Below, one piece after another: positions 1 through 5,133 of a DNA stretch of 5,133 bases. Position numbers and translations under genes: made by a program. Each line of letters opens with the position of its first letter. The first letter of the stretch is position 1. The stretch covers positions 1-5,133 of the IMG/VR virus record IMGVR_UViG_2671180727_000008; one strand, 5' to 3'. Origin of the DNA: a virus (taxonomy: Duplodnaviria; Heunggongvirae; Uroviricota; Caudoviricetes). A model generated the notes under the pieces. The model made no database searches. It saw nothing but the letters and a program-made list of their open reading frames with translations, and was not told where the DNA came from.

Positions 1-74
1 CGTGTACGCCGCAATGCACGGGATGGTCGCTATAAGCTGATTGGTTGATGAAATTAGGGCCCGCTCTGGCTGGC

Positions 75-271
75 GGGTCCTTTCCGGTGATCCAGAACGT
101 TACGGGGCGTCAGGCGCGCAGTTTTTCGCTATTTGTGAAAATTTTCCGGTTTAAGGCGTTTCCGTTCTTCTTCGTCGTAACTTAATGTTTTTATTTAAAA
201 TACCCCCTGAAAAGAAAGGAAATGACAGGCGCTGAAAACGGGCTTTTTGGCCTCTGCCGTTTCCTTTCTCT
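75..271 (+). other. cos: Phage cohesive-end packaging site (cos): right-end sequence, cosN-like nick region (about 96-120) and cosB with three R-type repeats (R3 157-170, inverted R2 about 213-226, R1 257-270) flanking an AT-rich, IHF-site-like spacer (171-210)
   Basis: Near-identical, by eye, to the lambda right-end/left-end junction as I recall it: '...ccggtgatcc-gttacg|gggcg...' followed by 'ttttcgctattt(g)tgaaaattttccggtttaaggcgtttccgttcttcttcgtc(g)taacttaatgtttttatttaaaatacc...gaaaagaaaggaaa(t)gacagg...ggctttttggcctctg(c)cgtttcctttctctg'. The repeat cgtttcc[g/t]ttct occurs twice directly and once inverted, which is the arrangement of the terminase small-subunit binding sites in lambda cosB. 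The 12-nt segment after 'gttacg' (104-115, gggcgtcaggcg) differs from the lambda cohesive end GGGCGGCGACCT, so this is a related but distinct cos. Similarity to lambda stops abruptly after 'cctttctctg' (about 271). Confidence 0.85.
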
Positions 272-772
272 GATTTTGTTGCTGTTTGTCACGGCCTATC
301 GCCAGAAAAAACTCTCATGCTTGCGTTGAAATCAGGCTCTACACTAAAGTAGTCGATAACGCGCCACTGGCTTCACTTTATGGTCGTGGCCTACTTCTGC
401 ACTATCGCAACAGCCTTACGAGTCCTGCTGGTAAGCTGTTGAGTAAGCAGAATACGGATTACAGGGCATCCTATGCGTATTGTGGTGGATCGAACACAAC
501 CGCTCAGGTGAAACCCGTTTCGTTACTATTATAGGAAAATCTTCATACCCAACTTGCTTGATAACTTCTTCTGGTTGTTTTAACCATGTAGAGATGATAT
601 TTCCCTGAAAAATTGCTTTCCCTCTGACTAGATGCGCATACCACATTTTGTCTTCGACATAGAACCGCGCAGAAATGATTACTCCACAGATACGGTTCTT
701 TCGTCAATTCATTATGGGATGGGCTCAAAAGGGAGAGCTCAACAATAAAGTTCTGGTAGGATAATTGTATGC

Positions 773-784
773 TTACAATTGTAA
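773..784. repeat. Perfect 12-bp palindrome TTACAATTGTAA in the AT-rich region upstream of the orphan gene; candidate operator
   Basis: Read directly: 773-784 ttacaattgtaa is its own reverse complement. The half-site-like 'aattgta' also occurs at 763-769. It lies about 190 bp upstream of the orphan CDS start. Confidence 0.45.
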
Positions 785-904
785 TGAAAGGAGAGTTAGA
801 GCCTGGTGTGATTCTGTGTGTAAAATTTTAGCAAATTACGTTTAATTAAGTGTCGTAACACACCATGCCTGTCAGATATTACACTTATCATAGAGTGTAT
901 GATA

Positions 905-934
905 TTGCTTTTCTAAACAATAAGCTGTTATATT
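905..934 (+). promoter_or_regulatory. Putative sigma70-type promoter for the orphan gene (-35 TTGCTT 905-910, 18-nt spacer, -10 TATATT 929-934)
   Basis: Hexamers read directly from sequence. The region is AT-rich, so such matches are frequent by chance; the position 40-70 bp upstream of the candidate start at 974 is suggestive only. Confidence 0.25.
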
Positions 935-973
935 TTATGGGTATTGTGTTTAATTTTTAATGACGGCTCTAAC

Positions 974-1909
974 ATGACCCCTGATGCAGTTTTGATTGCT
1001 AAAGCAATACTAATGTTGAAAGCAGATGTTGATTATACAAAAGATTATGTATTCCCTATTGCATTATCTTTTTTATCGGCGCTTATGGGAGGCTTAACTG
1101 CTTATTGCATCAATAATAGGCAAGAGAAGATTAAAATAGAAACGGAGAAATTTAATTCTGCTAATACGCTTATGATGGTTTCTTTTCAGATGATAAATAC
1201 ACTTGTGGGAATTAAAAGTAGTTATATTGGTTTGAGATCTAGAGATCCGATATTAAGAGCGCTGGCAATAAATGAATTTTTATTTAACGCCGGGGAGGTG
1301 AATTTCGATATTAGCCGTCTTTCATTTATAAAAAAGATACCCACAGCTAATAAATCTCTATTTGAGAGGTTTGTTTTTTTTATTAAGTACAAGATACTAA
1401 AACATGAACTTATTATGCCGTCAGATGAAGAAATTGGAAACTCATGGAGGAATATTGCTCGAATTGATGCTTTTTTGTTTAATTATAATTTTGTTTTGAA
1501 AAGTTTAGTTGTCAGGAATCAGCTTGATTCAGATTTAAAGAAACGTTTGTCTAATATTGCCAGTAAAGACAAGCCAGTGTTTGAAATTAAATTGGATGAA
1601 ATAAAGAAAGAAATTGGTGCTAGTGAGTTGTCAAAATATATTGATTTGACAGAAAGTATAGTGGCGTTGATCGATTATCTCATAATGGAAATTAATTCAT
1701 TTATTATGGAGTTCCCGAAGGTGGCGGAAAGTAATATTGAGTTATCTAAGGTGAATAAAGCTAAATTATCAACAATTGTTCTCAATAAGCCAGCATATTT
1801 GGCTGCATTGATTCCAATTCCACAACCTGACTTTGAATTAGTATCTTTACTAGTGGGTATGAGCCCAGAAGAAGCAAAGCAAAGATATTCGTATTCTGGT
1901 TGGCACTAG
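974..1909 (+). CDS. Hypothetical protein, 311 aa, with a predicted N-terminal transmembrane helix; orphan cargo (moron-like) gene, function unknown
   Basis: Long open frame (944..1909 in the ORF track) in DNA I estimate at roughly one-third G+C, where stops are frequent in non-coding frames, so a frame this long is unlikely by chance. The track start at 944 is TTG; the first ATG is 974, and another in-frame ATG is at 1013. No convincing Shine-Dalgarno precedes any of them, so the start is uncertain. The hydrophobic stretch YVFPIALSFLSALMGGLTAYCI (about residues 24-45 from 974) looks like one membrane-spanning helix, followed by a K/E/I/L/N-rich, probably helical, domain of about 265 aa. I see no Walker A, HxH, DxD or other catalytic motif. 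Same strand as the phage late genes. Confidence 0.75.
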   Translation: MTPDAVLIAKAILMLKADVDYTKDYVFPIALSFLSALMGGLTAYCINNRQEKIKIETEKFNSANTLMMVSFQMINTLVGIKSSYIGLRSRDPILRALAINEFLFNAGEVNFDISRLSFIKKIPTANKSLFERFVFFIKYKILKHELIMPSDEEIGNSWRNIARIDAFLFNYNFVLKSLVVRNQLDSDLKKRLSNIASKDKPVFEIKLDEIKKEIGASELSKYIDLTESIVALIDYLIMEINSFIMEFPKVAESNIELSKVNKAKLSTIVLNKPAYLAALIPIPQPDFELVSLLVGMSPEEAKQRYSYSGWH

Positions 1910-2038
1910 TAGATATAGTGACATACCTTTGCGAAGCGCTGTATTGCTACGTGTATTGCTTTTTAGCTGTGTTTTGATAGAGAGAGCCATTTATTTCATT
2001 AAAAATCATTCAGTTCCTTTCATATTTGACTCATGTAG

Positions 2039-2830
2039 CCGAAACACGAATTTAATTACCAGCAGGCGGTTGAGCGCCTTCCTGGTGAAGATCCGGCTCA
2101 ACTGAACGATCCGGCTTACCGCCGTCTGCGTATCATTACCGATAACCTCAAACAGGAAGAGCACGCGATTGTCCAGGTGGAAGAAATACAGGCGGTAAAT
2201 GCTGTGTTGTATGGCAAATATACGATGGAAGGAGACCAGTTCGAGAAAATTGAGGTCGATTTTGGCAGGTCGACGAAGAATAACATCACTCAGGGTAGTG
2301 GTAAGGAGTGGTCAAAACAGGATCGTGACACGTTCGATCCTACACATGATCTTGACCTCTACTGCGACCAGGCCAGCGGTCTTGTGAATATTGCCATTAT
2401 GGACGGTACCGTCTGGCGTCTTCTGAATGGTTTTAAGCTGTTCCGCGAAAAACTGGATACCCGTCGCGGTTCAAATTCTCAACTCGAAACGGCAGTGAAA
2501 GATCTGGGCGCAGTGGTGTCCTTCAAGGGGTATTACGGCGATCTGGCCATTGTGGTGGCGAAAACGTCTTATATAGCAGAAGACGGTATCGAAAAACGTT
2601 ATCTGCCGGAGGGCATGCTGGTTCTGGGGAATACTGCTGCAGATGGGATCCGTTGTTACGGTGCCATTCAGGATGCGCAGGCGTTGTCCGAAGGTGTGGT
2701 GGCCTCTTCCCGTTATCCGAAACACTGGCTGACGGTGGGGGATCCCGCCCGTGAATTTACCATGACGCAGTCCGCGCCGCTGATGGTGTTGCCGGACCCG
2801 GATGAGTTTGTGGTGGTACAGGTGAAATAA
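2039..2830 (+). pseudogene. E: Major capsid protein E, 5'-truncated (C-terminal about three-quarters only; no start codon or RBS at the junction)
   Basis: The frame opens right after an in-frame TAG at 2036-2038 and translates PKHEFNYQQAVERLPGEDPAQLNDPAYRRLRIITDNLKQEEHAIVQVEEIQAVNAVLYGKYTMEGDQFEKIEVDFGRS...TRRGSNSQLETAVKDLG...RYPKHWLTVGDPAREFTMTQSAPLMVLPDPDEFVVVQVK. This aligns by eye with lambda gpE from about residue 80 (..PKHEVNPQMTLRRLPDEDPQNLADPAYRRRRII..) to its C-terminus (..GDPAREFTMIQSAPLMLLADPDEFVSVQLA). The ORF track entry 2177..2830 is the same frame called from an internal GTG. The sequence upstream of 2036 is AT-rich and unrelated to the E N-terminus. Confidence 0.9.
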
Positions 2831-2837
2831 TCCGTGA

Positions 2838-2868
2838 GCGGGGGCGAAATGCCCCCGTGTCTTTTTTC
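2838..2868 (+). terminator. Rho-independent terminator-like hairpin (7-bp G/C stem cgggggc/gcccccg, 5-nt loop gaaat) followed by a T-tract, between E and FI
   Basis: Read directly: 2839-2845 cgggggc, loop 2846-2850 gaaat, 2851-2857 gcccccg (perfect complement), then tgtcttttttcac with a run of six T at 2862-2867. It sits 8 nt after the E stop codon (2828-2830). Confidence 0.6.
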
Positions 2869-2881
2869 ACAGGGGGCTGAT

Positions 2882-3256
2882 ATGGCAACGAAAGAGCAAA
2901 ATCTGAAACGGCTTGATGAACTGGCCCTGATTCTGGGGCGTGAGCCGGATATATCCGGGAGTGCCGCAGAGATAGCGCAGCGGGTGGCGGAATGGGAAGA
3001 GGAAATACAGTCATCCGGCGAGGATGTTCAGGTTGGGGATACGGTGATCCGGGAGCGGGAAACCGCGGCTCATGATGTTCGTGAGGATACATCCGGTGCG
3101 TTAACGCGCATCAGAGTTCTGACCTGCCTCCATCTCTGTGGCATTGATGGTGAAACAGGGGAATCCGTTGAGATTGCGGATGTTGGTCGGGTGATTCTGA
3201 TTATGTCCTCAGATGCAAAAACACACGTTGATGGCGGAATGGCTGTTTATGCGTGA
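2882..3256 (+). CDS. FI: DNA-packaging / head assembly protein FI (lambda gpFI homolog), 124 aa
   Basis: ATG at 2882 preceded by SD-like 'aggggg' (2871-2876). The N-terminal region MATKEQNLKRLDELALILGREPDISGSAAEIAQRVAEWEEEIQ resembles lambda FI (MTKDELIARLRSLGEQLNRDVSLTGTKEELALRVAELKEELDD, as recalled). Position immediately after E matches lambda gene order. The track ORF 2834..3256 starts from an upstream GTG that lies inside the terminator hairpin, so 2882 is preferred. Confidence 0.8.
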   Translation: MATKEQNLKRLDELALILGREPDISGSAAEIAQRVAEWEEEIQSSGEDVQVGDTVIRERETAAHDVREDTSGALTRIRVLTCLHLCGIDGETGESVEIADVGRVILIMSSDAKTHVDGGMAVYA

Positions 3257-3602
3257 TTTTCAGAATGCCTTTGATGCTGCCCTTGCCGGGGTGGACAGTA
3301 CGATTGTTGAAGTGATGGGGCTCTGTGCACAGTTCACCTCGGGGGCACAGTGTGGCGGAGAAGTTCAGGGGGTTTTTGACGATCCGGAGTCGCTGGGATT
3401 TGCCGGTAGCGGGGTCCGTATTGAAGGAAGCAGCCCGTCATTATTTGTGCGGACGGATACGGTTCGTGCTGTGCGGCGTGGTGACACGCTGACCATTAAT
3501 GGTGAGACGTTCTGGGTGGATCGTGTTTCTCCGGATGACGGGGGCAGCTGTTATCTCTGGCTCAACCGTGGGCAACCACCCGCCGTTAACCGGCGACGAT
3601 AA
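3249..3602 (+). CDS. FII: Head-tail joining / tail attachment protein FII (lambda gpFII homolog), 117 aa
   Basis: MRDFQNAFDAALAGVDSTIVEVMGLCAQFTSGAQCGGEVQGVFDDPESLGFAGSGVRIEGSSPSLFVRTDTVRAVRRGDTLTINGETFWVDRVSPDDGGSCYLWLNRGQPPAVNRRR aligns along its full length with lambda gpFII (MADFDNLFDAAIARADETIRG...GVFDDPENISYAGQGVRVEGSSPSLFVRTDEVRQLRRGDTLTI...FWVDRVSPDDGGSCHLWLGRGVPPAVNRRR). The start at 3249 is chosen by homology; the track ORF starts at an upstream in-frame ATG (3213). The start overlaps the FI stop (ATGCGTGA), suggesting translational coupling. Confidence 0.92.
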   Translation: MRDFQNAFDAALAGVDSTIVEVMGLCAQFTSGAQCGGEVQGVFDDPESLGFAGSGVRIEGSSPSLFVRTDTVRAVRRGDTLTINGETFWVDRVSPDDGGSCYLWLNRGQPPAVNRRR

Positions 3603-3617
3603 ACGCAGGGTGAAATT

Positions 3618-4151
3618 ATGGCGATAAAAGGGCTTGAGCAGGCGATTGATAATCTGAGCCGGGTTCGTAAAAACGCCATTCCGGCGGCTTCTGCAATGAC
3701 CATTAACCGCGTGGCCACAACGGCGATTAATCAGTCTTCATCACAGGTTGCCCGGGAAACCAGGGTGAGACGGAAACTGGTTAAGGAACGGTCCAGACTG
3801 AAACGGGCCACGGTCAGAAATCCGAATGCCAGAATTATCGTTAACCGCGGTGATCTCCCGGTGATTAAGCTGGGGATCAGGATGCCGGGGCGTCGTCCGG
3901 ACAGCATACTCAAAGCCGGTCAGCATCGTTATCAGCGGGCATTTATTCAGCGATTAAAAAATGGTCGCTGGCATGTCATGCAGCGTGTGGTCGGGAAAAA
4001 CCGTTACCCCATTGATGTGGTGAAAATCCCGATGGCGGCCCCACTGAAACAGGCGTTTGATGAGAATGTTGACCGTATCCGGCGTGAACGTCTGCCCGGA
4101 GAACTGGCATACGCGCTGAAACAACAACTGAGGATTGCGATAAAACGATGA
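3618..4151 (+). CDS. Z: Minor tail protein Z (lambda gpZ homolog), 177 aa
   Basis: MAIKGLEQAIDNLSRVRKNAIPAASAMTINRVATTAINQSSSQVARETRVRRKLVKERSRLKRATVRNPNARIIVNRGDLPVIKLG...AFIQRLKNGRWHVMQRVVGKNRYPIDVVKIPMAAPL...[25 protein letters not shown] closely matches lambda gpZ at both ends. A central segment (about residues 86-110) is shorter and divergent relative to lambda Z as I recall it. ATG at 3618 has SD-like 'gcagggtga' upstream. Confidence 0.9.
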   Translation: MAIKGLEQAIDNLSRVRKNAIPAASAMTINRVATTAINQSSSQVARETRVRRKLVKERSRLKRATVRNPNARIIVNRGDLPVIKLGIRMPGRRPDSILKAGQHRYQRAFIQRLKNGRWHVMQRVVGKNRYPIDVVKIPMAAPLKQAFDENVDRIRRERLPGELAYALKQQLRIAIKR

Positions 4152-4543
4152 AACATACTGATATCCGTGCTGCAGTGCTGGATGCACTGGAGCTGCATGA
4201 ACACGGGGCGACGCTGTTTGATGGTCGCCCCGTTGTTTTTGACGAAGAGGATTTTCCCGCGGTCGCGGTTTATCTGACGGATGCAGAGTATACCGGTGAA
4301 GAGCTGGATGCAGATACCTGGCGGGCCACACTGCATATTGAGGTGTTTTTACCAGCACAGGTACCGGATTCGGAGCTGGATTCGTGGATGGAAAGCCGGA
4401 TTTATCCGGCGATGACTGCGATCCCGGCACTGGCAGACCTGATTACCACGATGGTTACGCAGGGCTATGAGTATCGTCGTGATGACGATATGGCGTTATG
4501 GAGTTCTGCGGATCTGACTTATTCCATTACATACGAGATGTGA
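4148..4543 (+). CDS. U: Tail tube terminator protein U (lambda gpU homolog), 131 aa
   Basis: [131 protein letters not shown] is collinear with lambda gpU and the same length (131 aa). The start overlaps the Z stop (ATGA). Confidence 0.95.
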
Positions 4544-4550
4544 GGACGAT

Positions 4551-5133
4551 ATGTCAACACCAAATCCCCTTGAGCCGGTAAAAGGTGCCGGTACCACCCT
4601 GTGGGTTTATAACGGTCAGGGTGACGCCTATGCAAACCCGTTGTCAGACGATGACTGGCTGCGACTGGCTAAGGTGAAGGATCTGACGCCGGGCGAGATG
4701 ACGGCAGAACCCTACGATGATAACTACCTGGATGATGAAGACGCGGACTGGACCGCGACCGGGCAGGGGCAGAAGTCTGCAGGAGATACCAGTTTTACGC
4801 TGGCCTGGAAACCGGGAGAAGAAGGTCAGAAAGGGCTTATAGGCTGGTTTGAAAGCGGGGATGTGCGGGCCTATAAAATCCGTTTTCCGAACGGCACGGT
4901 GGATGTGTTTCGTGGCTGGGTCAGCAGTATCGGTAAGGCCGTGACGGCGAAAGAAGTGATCACCCGCACGGTGAAAGTGACCAACGTGGGCAAACCTTCT
5001 GTAGCGGAAGAACGCAGCAAAATTACGCCGGTCACTGCGATTAAGGTGACGCCGACATCCGGTACGGTGGCAAAAGGGAAAACAACCACCCTGACGGTTT
5101 CTTTTGAGCCGGAAAGTGCAACCGACAAGACGT
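4551..5133 (+). CDS. V: Major tail protein V (lambda gpV homolog), N-terminal 194 codons; CDS continues beyond the window end
   Basis: ATG at 4551 preceded by SD 'gagga' (4542-4546). The translation [86 protein letters not shown]...[44 protein letters not shown]... matches lambda gpV (..[123 protein letters not shown]..). It is missing from the ORF track only because there is no stop codon before the window ends. Confidence 0.95.

What the first reader, a model, noticed from the sequence alone, without database searches (positions are those of the whole stretch)
730..2038. AT-rich cargo island with a membrane-anchored orphan protein in place of the head genes
Directly after cosB and directly before a truncated E gene sits a block I estimate at roughly one-third G+C, against more than 50% in the flanking phage genes. 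It encodes a single 311-aa protein (974..1909) with one predicted N-terminal transmembrane helix and a long helical K/E/N/I-rich domain with no motif I recognise. The compositional break, single-gene organisation, possible own promoter and operator-like palindrome, and position inside a prophage fit a horizontally acquired moron. Such genes are often superinfection-exclusion, abortive-infection or other defence determinants, frequently membrane-anchored. It may belong to no described family, but that is inference from architecture only.
Basis: partly seen in the sequence, partly recalled or inferred. Interest (0 to 1): 0.75.

Follow-up and report, generated by a model that had tools for sequence, protein, structure and literature searches.

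The report
Satellite cargo gene, not a head-gene deletion
The AT-rich block is real, but it is the variable cargo end of an already described phage satellite (a helper-embedded PICI) inserted into the prophage's capsid gene E, and it carries one conserved, probably membrane-anchored protein of an uncharacterised family that is a reasonable but untested anti-phage candidate.

Summary
Window 730-2036 is 32.7% G+C against 53.7% in the E-to-V genes, and it holds one intact 311-aa ORF (974..1909) with one hydrophobic N-terminal helix and an all-helical body.

The setting was misread. No head genes are missing. In the complete E. coli genomes that carry this junction, an ~11-kb satellite sits inside gene E at codon ~80, flanked by an 11-bp duplicated core (AGCCGAARCAC; window 2037-2047). 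This is the published '11capE' helper-embedded PICI (Tommasini et al. 2023). The cos in the window belongs to the satellite. The 'truncated E' is the attR half of a split E gene.

The AT-rich gene lies in the satellite's cos-to-attR segment, whose content differs between sister satellites. It was apparently captured from a lambdoid I-J tail-operon slot, because a remnant of gene I lies upstream of it.

The protein matches phrog_21267 (function unknown) and has no Pfam, NCBIfam, PADLOC or fold match. It is under purifying selection (dN/dS ~0.11). Homologues recur in PICI 3' ends, a P2 tin/old-type hotspot, lambdoid I-J slots and small islands.

An anti-phage role is plausible (~0.5) but untested. 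The satellite architecture is already known; the gene is a new candidate in a known kind of hotspot.

The parts
1..48 (+). 3' end of the satellite's 127-aa AlpA-family HTH gene, the last conserved gene of the satellite late zone before cos
   Evidence: Window position 1 = L001 19722 and the CDS is L001 19386..19769. Pfam Phage_AlpA E 7.6e-9. phrog_2790 E 1.1e-49.
73..278 (+). Satellite cos site. The cosN-equivalent 12-mer is at 105-116 (GGGCGTCAGGCG). The lambda-type cosB R3/R2/R1 repeats are retained.
   Evidence: 90% identical over 206 nt to the helper prophage's own cos upstream of nohA in L001, with differences clustered in the cosN 12-mer (helper GGGCGGCGACCT). PMC10111431 reports a 258-bp, 90% match between 11capE and its helper at the cos position.
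367..528 (+). Pseudogene remnant: residues ~126-180 of a gpI-like tail assembly protein
   Evidence: tblastn with the gpI-like proteins of prophages L003 and L007, E ~5e-8. The contiguous L013 version hits phrog_32 'tail assembly protein' at E 1.6e-12.
521..702 (-). Segment inverted relative to sister satellite L013 and to the Enterobacter locus L023. It carries the last ~19 codons of the gpI remnant (644-700, minus strand).
   Evidence: blastn: window 521-702 = L013 14434..14253 at 89.6%, with collinear flanks. tblastn: gpI residues 183-201 map to window 700..644. No long terminal inverted repeats. All 17 E. coli copies share the window's orientation.
690..973 (+). Upstream region that travels with the gene. 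It holds a weak sigma-70-like element, TTGCTT-N17-TTATAT, at 905-933.
   Evidence: Window 690-2046 is 80% identical to E. cloacae locus L023 9724-11069. Both hexamers are conserved in L023. The element falls below the scan's threshold and is not above chance.
974..1909 (+). Cargo gene: a 311-aa predicted single-pass membrane protein (TM residues 25-46) with a ~265-aa helical domain, family phrog_21267
   Evidence: ORF. phrog_21267 E 7.8e-132. Homologues. dN/dS 0.11. AF2 pLDDT 85.6. Topology statistics.
1910..2036 (+). Satellite attR arm, with two TGTATTGC repeats (1940-1947 and 1952-1959) that are probably integrase arm-type sites
   Evidence: The same 12-bp-spaced pair lies upstream of int at the attL side (L001 10727, 10739; L013 5070, 5082; L025 254, 266). 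It lies at the attR side in every intact satellite examined (L001, L013, L019, L020, L025), whatever the cargo. 0.16 occurrences are expected per window. Arm homology to L019, L013, L025 and L023. The role as arm sites is inferred.
2037..2047 (+). att core AGCCGAAACAC, the identity block duplicated at attL as AGCCGAAGCAC
   Evidence: attL, attR and intact E compared directly. The 100% match to intact-E prophages starts at 2037. PMC10111431 reports a 10-bp identity block at site E:Phage_cap_E:80.
2039..2830 (+). attR half of helper major capsid gene E (codons ~80-342). It is split by the satellite, not deleted.
   Evidence: Pfam Phage_cap_E profile positions 119-329 of 329, E 3.1e-38. RefSeq annotates the E N-terminal fragment at L001 10354..10599 and the C-terminal fragment at 21760..22548. 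Intact E is L002 2766..3794.
2882..4543 (+). Helper prophage genes FI (2882-3256), FII (3252-3602), Z (3618-4151) and U (4148-4543); V starts at 4551
   Evidence: Pfam Packaging_FI, Phage_attach, Minor_tail_Z and Phage_tail_U. 100% identical to O145:H28 prophages.

Best explanation
The AT-rich block is the accessory ('cargo') end of an ~11-kb phage satellite of the published 11capE helper-embedded PICI type. The satellite's tyrosine integrase has inserted it, co-oriented, into codon ~80 of gene E of a lambda-like helper prophage. The window shows the satellite's last conserved gene (AlpA-like), the satellite's cos, a decayed stretch, one cargo gene, the attR arm and core, and then the rest of E followed by FI-V (shown).

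The cargo cassette originated as a moron in the I-J junction of a lambdoid tail operon and was captured together with the 3' end of gene I (shown by the remnant; the direction of transfer is inferred).

The gene encodes a conserved, selectively maintained 311-aa protein with one N-terminal transmembrane helix, probably N-out/C-in, and a cytoplasmic helical-bundle domain of no known fold (predicted).

Most likely function (inferred, not shown): a stand-alone anti-phage determinant that protects the lysogen and so benefits both satellite and helper. My preferred mechanism is that the cytoplasmic helical domain senses an infection cue, and the unusually conserved TM helix (KDYxFP...SAxxGG) then oligomerises to compromise the inner membrane, giving abortive infection.

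Approximate confidences: satellite cargo setting 0.95; anti-phage role of any kind 0.5; this particular Abi-type mechanism 0.25.
For: Setting:
- Strain 10 has intact head genes, then an E fragment, int, AlpA, primase, SSB, a capsid gene, a decoration gene, an AlpA-like gene, cos, the 311-aa gene and the rest of E.
- An 11-bp core is duplicated at both junctions, and intact E has a single copy.
- The published description of 11capE matches in site, size, own capsid gene and cos.
- The cos is 90% identical to the helper's.
- TGTATTGC repeat pairs lie in both att arms.

Variable cargo:
- 364 of 5,426 genomes carry this late module, but only ~17 carry this gene.
- Sister satellites carry an REase-like gene, terS + DUF2971 (PDC-S31), or other hypothetical genes.
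- PICIs are reported to carry immune systems at their 5' or 3' ends (PMC11364771).

Origin:
- A gpI remnant lies upstream of the gene.
- Homologues lie directly after gpI and before J in three lambdoid prophage lineages.

Real protein:
- dN/dS is 0.11.
- There are 309 family representatives and a confident AF2 model.

Defence-like distribution:
- A 69% homologue is at the 3' end of a non-embedded Citrobacter PICI.
- A 27% homologue is in the gpA-cos (tin/old) hotspot of phage P2_AC1, next to the validated TIR system (PMC9122126).
- An 84% homologue is next to a SIR2-like gene.
- The gene is AT-rich in every context.

Membrane effector idea:
- The TM segment is the most conserved part of the family.
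- K/R residues are enriched on its C-flank in 45 of 55 members.
Against: - There is no experimental evidence for any function.
- There is no similarity to any PADLOC model, to Tai or to any solved or viral predicted structure beyond generic four-helix bundles.
- The hydrophobic segment is only borderline by Kyte-Doolittle (1.6), and AF2 draws it as part of one long helix (21-84), so membrane insertion is itself a prediction.
- No promoter or terminator above chance was found, so expression in the lysogen is unproven.
- Hotspot residence is only statistical evidence. In Rousset et al. 2022 just over a third of cloned hotspot systems showed activity.
- The P2_AC1 homologue (gp01) is not one of the three genes covered by the validated system's models.
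- The window itself does not contain attL or the satellite backbone. That part rests on near-identical complete genomes.
Confidence: 0.5

Rival explanations
1. Superinfection exclusion at the inner membrane. The protein sits in the membrane and blocks genome entry of incoming (probably lambdoid) phages, as HK97 gp15 does, and does not kill the cell.
For: - The ancestral position is inside a lambdoid tail operon, between I and J. This is the same kind of slot as the HK97 gene 15 moron, whose inner-membrane product blocks DNA entry in a manner dependent on the phage tail (PMC3594210).
- It has a single conserved TM helix.
Against: - The positive-inside statistics place the ~265-aa domain in the cytoplasm, not the periplasm.
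- From my own knowledge, known injection blockers are small or expose their domain outside the cytoplasm.
- There is no sequence relation to YebO/gp15 (no Pfam hit).
Confidence: 0.2
2. A moron with a function other than defence: a host-fitness or envelope-related factor, or an accessory of the phage or satellite life cycle (for example lysis timing or tail-related).
For: - Morons have diverse roles such as Lom, Bor and SopE (PMC3594210).
- The gene is co-oriented with late operons in both the prophage and satellite contexts, so it would be read through late in infection (PMC10111431).
- There is no defence-model match.
Against: - It is absent from ~95% of satellites with the same late module, so it is not a core satellite function.
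- It also occurs in a P2-like phage hotspot, a non-embedded PICI and small islands with unrelated backbones.
- Two of those slots are experimentally established anti-phage hotspots.
Confidence: 0.25
3. One reading: a defective prophage lost Nu1 through D and the 5' part of E, and a moron was acquired in their place directly after the prophage's own cos.
For: Within the 5.1-kb window alone, cos is followed by foreign DNA and then a 5'-truncated E.
Against: - Every complete genome with this junction that I inspected has the full head module, an E N-terminal fragment and an integrase-bearing satellite between them.
- The junctions share a duplicated core at the published HE-PICI site (PMC10111431).
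- The cos differs from the helper's own cos in its cosN core.
- Window 1-48 is the end of a satellite AlpA-like gene, not a lambdoid gene upstream of cos.
Confidence: 0.03
4. A decaying or non-functional ORF carried passively in junk DNA between cos and attR.
For: The neighbouring 286-973 stretch is decayed and rearranged. No promoter above chance was found.
Against: - The ORF is intact in all contexts examined.
- dN/dS is 0.11 over dS 0.76-1.7.
- Conserved motifs persist down to ~25% identity.
- The AF2 model is confident.
Confidence: 0.03

Closest known systems
11capE-type helper-embedded PICI (HE-PICI), site E:Phage_cap_E:80 (Tommasini, Mageeney and Williams 2023, PMC10111431)
   Same: - Integration inside codon ~80 of a lambda-E homologue with a ~10-bp identity block.
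- Size of ~11 kb and co-orientation with the late gene.
- The int-AlpA / Bro / primase-SSB / late-zone order.
- An E-family capsid gene and a decoration gene of its own.
- A cos ~90% identical to the helper's.
   Different: Nothing in the architecture differs. The paper does not discuss the post-cos cargo, this gene, the gpI remnant or the cosN difference.
Immune-system cargo at PICI ends and the cos-proximal hotspots of P4 and P2 (Fillol-Salom et al. 2022, cited via PMC11364771; Rousset et al. 2022, PMC9122126)
   Same: - It sits in a variable, cos-adjacent segment whose content changes between otherwise similar elements.
- Sister cargo includes REase-like and PDC-S31 candidates.
- A homologue sits in the P2 gpA-cos hotspot.
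   Different: This protein has not been tested. It matches no described defence family.
HK97 gp15 moron (Cumby et al. 2012; review PMC3594210)
   Same: - A horizontally acquired gene with deviant GC inside a lambdoid tail operon.
- It encodes an inner-membrane protein.
- The precedent function is superinfection exclusion.
   Different: - gp15 is a small YebO-family protein lying between the tail chaperone and tape-measure genes.
- This protein is 311 aa, unrelated in sequence, lies between I and J, and has a large, probably cytoplasmic domain.
Tai (tail assembly inhibition) systems of PICIs, prophages and P4-like satellites (He et al. 2024, PMC11364771)
   Same: A single-gene determinant found as a moron in lambdoid prophages and in satellites.
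   Different: - No homology: tblastn does not hit phi80, and hhalign against TaiEcA (PHI80_63, 204 aa) gives probability 0.3%.
- The locations differ. In PICIs Tai lies next to pri, and in phages it lies upstream of the packaging module.
Lactococcal AbiP-type single-gene abortive infection proteins (recalled from my own knowledge, not checked here)
   Same: An N-terminal membrane anchor plus a cytoplasmic domain, encoded by a single AT-rich gene on a mobile element.
   Different: No sequence or structural comparison was made. This is an analogy of architecture only.

Membership tests
HE-PICI, 11capE type (E:Phage_cap_E:80) | Integrated within a cognate of lambda gene E at about codon 80, with a short identity block at attL and attR | tested here: met
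   attL is GTCAAGCCGAAGCAC|TTAGC. attR is CATGT|AGCCGAAACACGAATTT. Intact E has GTCAAGCCGAAACACGAATTT at nt 232-252. The match to intact-E prophages starts at window 2037.
HE-PICI, 11capE type (E:Phage_cap_E:80) | PICI gene organisation (int, AlpA, Bro zone, primase/SSB, late zone), co-oriented with the interrupted late gene | tested here: met
   Seen in L001, L013, L019 and L020, which carry the same right end. The window itself holds only the last 48 nt of the late zone, so for the source genome this is inferred from 99.9-100% identity over window 1-2040.
HE-PICI, 11capE type (E:Phage_cap_E:80) | A cos site similar to that of the helper, with no terL | tested here: met
   90% identity over 206 nt to the helper cos in L001. 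No terminase large subunit lies between attL and attR in L001.
HE-PICI, 11capE type (E:Phage_cap_E:80) | Excision after helper induction, restoring E | not testable with these tools
   Shown experimentally for Eco567.11capE in PMC10111431. Not shown for this copy.
Anti-phage cargo of a satellite hotspot | The locus content varies between otherwise homologous elements | tested here: met
   Five different cargo sets follow the same late module. The gene is in ~17 of ~364 such satellites.
Anti-phage cargo of a satellite hotspot | The gene confers phage resistance when expressed | not testable with these tools
Known defence protein families (PADLOC-DB v2.0.0) | A significant match to a defence-system HMM | tested here: not met
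   The only hit is a spurious type IV Cas8 match at E 0.024. The P2_AC1 homologue gp01 also has no hit, whereas its neighbours gp02-04 match TIR-TM, 1TM-TIR and 2TM-TIR.
Tai (tail assembly inhibition) | Homology to TaiEcA (phi80 orf63) or its relatives | tested here: not met
   tblastn against 50,697 phage records, phi80 included, hits only P2_AC1. hhalign of family profile A2 against PHI80_63 gives probability 0.3%.
phrog_21267 (PHROGs v4, unknown function) | A full-length profile match | tested here: met
   E 7.8e-132, residues 1-311 against profile positions 1-291 of 291.
Moron (sense of Juhala/Hendrix, as summarised in PMC3594210) | [quoted passage not shown] | tested here: met
   Gene GC is 0.31-0.37 against flanks of 0.38-0.56 in six contexts.
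Moron (sense of Juhala/Hendrix, as summarised in PMC3594210) | Own promoter and terminator allowing expression from the repressed prophage | tested here: inconclusive
   The consensus scan finds no + strand promoter and no terminator. A weak TTGCTT-N17-TTATAT element at 905-933 is conserved in the E. cloacae copy. Transcript mapping is needed.
HK97 gp15 / YebO | Sequence membership of the YebO family | tested here: not met
   No Pfam family reached E 0.1 apart from two sub-threshold unrelated hits. The resemblance is of architecture and location only.

The most novel reading that the evidence does not exclude
phrog_21267 and its ~300 wider relatives form a new single-protein anti-phage family with a previously unseen helical fold. 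A conserved transmembrane helix would act as the effector and a cytoplasmic bundle as the sensor. The family began as a tail-operon moron of lambdoid phages and has been passed repeatedly between phages and their satellites (PICI 3' ends, P2 cos-proximal hotspot).
Probability: 0.35. Interest if true: 0.55.

Novelty: new member of a known kind. Interest (0 to 1): 0.4.

Why it matters
The analysis corrects a misreading. What looks like a crippled prophage with a moron in place of its head genes is a helper prophage carrying an embedded satellite, and gene E would be restored when the satellite excises.

It also adds detail that the paper describing these satellites does not cover:
- Their post-cos segment behaves as a cargo hotspot.
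- One cargo cassette can be traced, through a leftover piece of gene I, to a lambdoid tail-operon moron slot. This is a concrete example of cargo moving from phage to satellite.

The cargo protein is a tractable candidate for a new single-gene phage-resistance determinant. It is small, conserved, of unknown fold, and present in three kinds of anti-phage hotspot. Many such candidates exist, however, and only an experiment can raise its value.

Tried and rejected
1. **Domain searches (Pfam, NCBIfam, PADLOC).** Nothing significant. Ten distant family members also have no Pfam domain.
2. **Sequence search of the PDB with the family profile.** Nothing below E 0.03.
3. **Fold searches on the confident AF2 model.**
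   - Foldseek against the PDB and BFVD gives nothing at E <= 0.001.
   - AFDB50 was not available.
4. **Two-gene system hypothesis.**
   - The ~201-209-aa ORF upstream of the homologues is the phage's gpI.
   - The 151-aa ORF in E. cloacae is unrelated to anything in the window.
   - No partner is conserved across contexts.
5. **Tai membership.** Rejected.
6. **Membership of the validated P2_AC1 TIR/1TM/2TM system.** Rejected. The homologue is a fourth gene, separated by ~750 bp.
7. **Active invertible switch at 521-702.** Not supported. There are no long inverted repeats, and all 17 E. coli copies have one orientation.
8. **Remnant of terS (Nu1) after cos.** No similarity.
9. **Profile search of the 5.8-billion-protein set with the wide alignment.** It was limited by the candidate cap and added only one usable member.
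10. **Genome-contig scan with the AlpA-like protein.** It returned only 3 loci, because the collection holds one genome per species.
11. **Rfam scan of the window.** No hits.
12. **Fillol-Salom et al. 2022 (Cell).** Not held in the library, so it is cited only through He et al. 2024.
Full report

Yes for composition and coding content.
- G+C is 0.327 over 730-2036 and 0.326 over the ORF (third positions 0.29). It is 0.537 over 2037-5133 and 0.48 over 1-285.
- The only long ORF is 974..1909, 311 aa. Its ATG is supported by the N-termini of 17 homologous clusters.
- A 19-residue Kyte-Doolittle scan gives one segment at the conventional TM threshold, residues 25-46.
- An AlphaFold2 model built on the family alignment is confident (pLDDT 85.6, pTM 0.75) and entirely helical.
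- Downstream lie the C-terminal 263 codons of a lambda-E-type capsid gene, then FI, FII, Z, U and V. Upstream lies a lambda-type cos.

**2. What the surroundings really are.**

- No complete E. coli genome holds the whole window. The part from 2037 onward is 100% identical to O145:H28 prophages with an intact E gene.
- Window 280-2040 occurs in 17 of 5,426 genomes.
- In the best of these (strain 10, L001) the head genes are all present: nohA, terL, W, portal, protease, D and the first ~80 codons of E.
- Then comes an ~11-kb insert: tyrosine integrase, AlpA, DUF2971, SWIM, Icd-like, DUF4222, primase, SSB, an E-family capsid gene, a decoration gene, a second AlpA-family gene, cos, the 311-aa gene. 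After it comes the rest of E.
- The two junctions share AGCCGAARCAC, which is present once in intact E at nt ~236-246.
- This is the '11capE' helper-embedded PICI of Tommasini, Mageeney and Williams (PMC10111431). That element is an 11-kb satellite inside gene E (site E:Phage_cap_E:80) with a 10-bp identity block, its own capsid gene and a cos ~90% identical to the helper's. The authors found 201 instances and showed excision after induction.
- I confirmed the cos relationship: 186 of 206 nt are identical.
- I also found paired TGTATTGC repeats in both att arms of every intact satellite examined. These are probably arm-type integrase sites. They show that window 1910-2036 is the satellite's att arm and not cargo.
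- So the head genes are not replaced, the cos is the satellite's, and E is split, not truncated.

**3. The post-cos segment is a variable cargo slot.**

- 364 genomes carry a satellite with the same capsid-decoration-AlpA-cos module. Homology to strain 10 usually stops just after cos.
- Sampled sisters carry, between cos and attR:
  - a restriction-endonuclease-like gene on the other strand (L013);
  - terS plus a DUF2971 protein that matches PADLOC candidate PDC-S31 (L019);
  - three hypothetical genes plus DUF3892 (L020);
  - terS plus a 94-aa ORF, in relatives integrated at chromosomal sites near thiM and clpS (L021, L022).
- He et al. 2024 state that PICIs carry immune systems at their 5' or 3' ends (PMC11364771).

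**4. Where the cassette came from.**

- Window 286-973 has no intact ORF.
- Window 367-528 (+) and 700-644 (-) encode the last ~75 residues of a gpI-like tail assembly protein. The contiguous version in L013 hits phrog_32 at E 1.6e-12. tblastn with the gpI-like proteins of prophages L003 and L007 confirms the match.
- In three lambdoid prophage lineages (Citrobacter freundii L003-L006, Lelliottia L007-L009, Enterobacteriaceae G50 L029), homologues of the 311-aa gene lie directly after that type of gpI and directly before J.
- The simplest reading is that a moron from the I-J junction was captured into the satellite's late zone together with the end of gene I. This fits the 'late gene capture' proposed in PMC10111431.
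- In the window lineage a 180-bp piece (521-702) was later inverted, which broke the remnant.
- The same cassette plus att arm (window 690-2046, 80% identity) lies in an E. cloacae chromosome next to a SIR2-like gene. This is probably a decayed satellite end.

**5. The protein.**

- It matches phrog_21267 (unknown function) end to end. It matches nothing in Pfam, NCBIfam or PADLOC.
- Close relatives (37-96% identity) are confined to Enterobacteriaceae.
- A profile search of 1.84 billion cluster representatives finds 309 relatives, mostly 270-320 aa. Ten that I sampled have no Pfam domain.
- dN/dS against the Enterobacter and Citrobacter orthologues is 0.11.
- The gene is 31-37% G+C in every context.
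- Conserved motifs are KDYxFP and SAxxGG in the hydrophobic helix, WRNxxR...NYN, and FPxIAESNIELS.
- The hydrophobic helix is the most conserved segment. K/R residues are enriched on its C-terminal flank in 45 of 55 members, which favours N-out/C-in with the large domain in the cytoplasm.
- Fold searches give only generic helical bundles.

**6. Other contexts.**

- A 69% homologue sits at the 3' end (after an AlpA-like gene and Nu1-like terS) of a non-embedded Citrobacter PICI.
- A 27% homologue (pairwise E 8e-23) is gp01 of phage P2_AC1. It lies between gpA and cos, in the tin/old hotspot of Rousset et al. 2022.
  - Its neighbours gp02-04 are the experimentally validated TIR/1TM/2TM system (PMC9122126).
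  - gp01 is a separate gene that those models do not cover.
- Other homologues lie in integrase-bearing islands or small islets.
- No partner gene is conserved across contexts.

**7. Function.**

- Nothing tested here shows a function.
- The distribution (one gene alone; always AT-rich; in two experimentally established anti-phage hotspots and a tail-operon moron slot) makes an anti-phage role the best single hypothesis, at about 0.5.
- Given the predicted cytoplasmic domain and the conserved TM helix with a small-residue motif, I favour an abortive-infection-type membrane effector (about 0.25). A gp15-like block of genome entry comes next (about 0.2; PMC3594210).
- A non-defence moron function remains open (about 0.25).
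- The protein is not a Tai.

**8. Promoter and palindrome claims.**

- The consensus scan finds no + strand promoter and no terminator, and the total count is below that of shuffled sequence.
- The 7-nt-arm palindrome at ~763-780 is unremarkable in AT-rich DNA.
- A weak TTGCTT-N17-TTATAT element at 905-933 is conserved in the E. cloacae copy. This is only suggestive.

**9. Verdict.**

- The element is an already described helper-embedded PICI.
- The gene is an uncharacterised but conserved cargo protein, a new candidate in a known kind of hotspot.
- Interest is moderate (0.4). It would rise if a phage-resistance phenotype were shown.

Noticed in passing
window 105-116 (cosN-equivalent), compared with L001 ~4200-4215: The satellite's cos is 90% identical to the helper's and keeps the cosB R3/R2/R1 repeats. 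The differences cluster in the 12-nt cohesive-end core (GGGCGTCAGGCG against the helper's lambda-type GGGCGGCGACCT). This may bear on packaging specificity, perhaps together with the adjacent AlpA-like gene.
   Followed up: partly
window 521-702, compared with L013 14253-14434 and L023 ~9540-9724: A ~180-bp segment is inverted relative to a sister satellite and to an Enterobacter copy, which breaks the gpI remnant. It has no long terminal inverted repeats, and all 17 E. coli copies have the same orientation. It looks like a fixed rearrangement and not a switch.
   Followed up: yes
window 1940-1947 and 1952-1959; L001 10727 and 10739: Paired TGTATTGC repeats 12 bp apart occur upstream of int at the attL side (checked in L001, L013, L025) and at the attR side of every intact satellite examined (0.16 expected per window by chance). 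They are probably integrase arm-type binding sites.
   Followed up: partly
L028 6168-6854 and L020 7051-7737: The 228-aa hypothetical cargo protein (phrog_28570) of E. coli satellite DS26-1 is 81% identical to the ORF directly upstream of the 311-aa homologue in a Leclercia island. Cargo genes from these hotspots therefore co-circulate and stack.
   Followed up: partly
L014 (phage P2_AC1) 105-1022, minus strand: P2_AC1 gp01 (305 aa), a distant homologue of the cargo protein, is a fourth gene in the gpA-cos hotspot. It lies next to, but is not part of, the three-gene TIR/1TM/2TM system validated by Rousset et al. 2022. Whether it contributes to the lysogen's phenotype is unknown.
   Followed up: partly
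L019 7191-7949 (minus strand); L001 12246-13067: DUF2971 proteins occur both as post-cos cargo in a sister satellite (PADLOC candidate PDC-S31, E 7.6e-26) and in the 5' 'Bro zone' of the satellite in strain 10 (weak PDC-S31 hit, E 1.2e-4).
   Followed up: no
window 2037-5133, compared with L001 21760 onward: The helper part of the window is 100% identical to O145:H28 prophages that lack the satellite. In strain 10, which has the identical satellite end, FII, Z, G, T and H are frameshifted. No complete genome among 5,426 holds the whole window, so this satellite/helper combination is not represented there.
   Followed up: no
L021 and L022: Satellites with the same capsid-decoration-AlpA-cos late module are also found outside prophages, next to thiM and clpS. 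The module is therefore shared between embedded and chromosomally integrated PICIs.
   Followed up: no
L029 4934-6289: In the Enterobacteriaceae G50 lambdoid prophage, an HxlR regulator and a metallo-beta-lactamase-fold gene with a weak Anti-Pycsar Apyc1 hit lie between K and the gpI-like gene, next to the I-J moron. The tail operon of this prophage carries several accessory genes.
   Followed up: no
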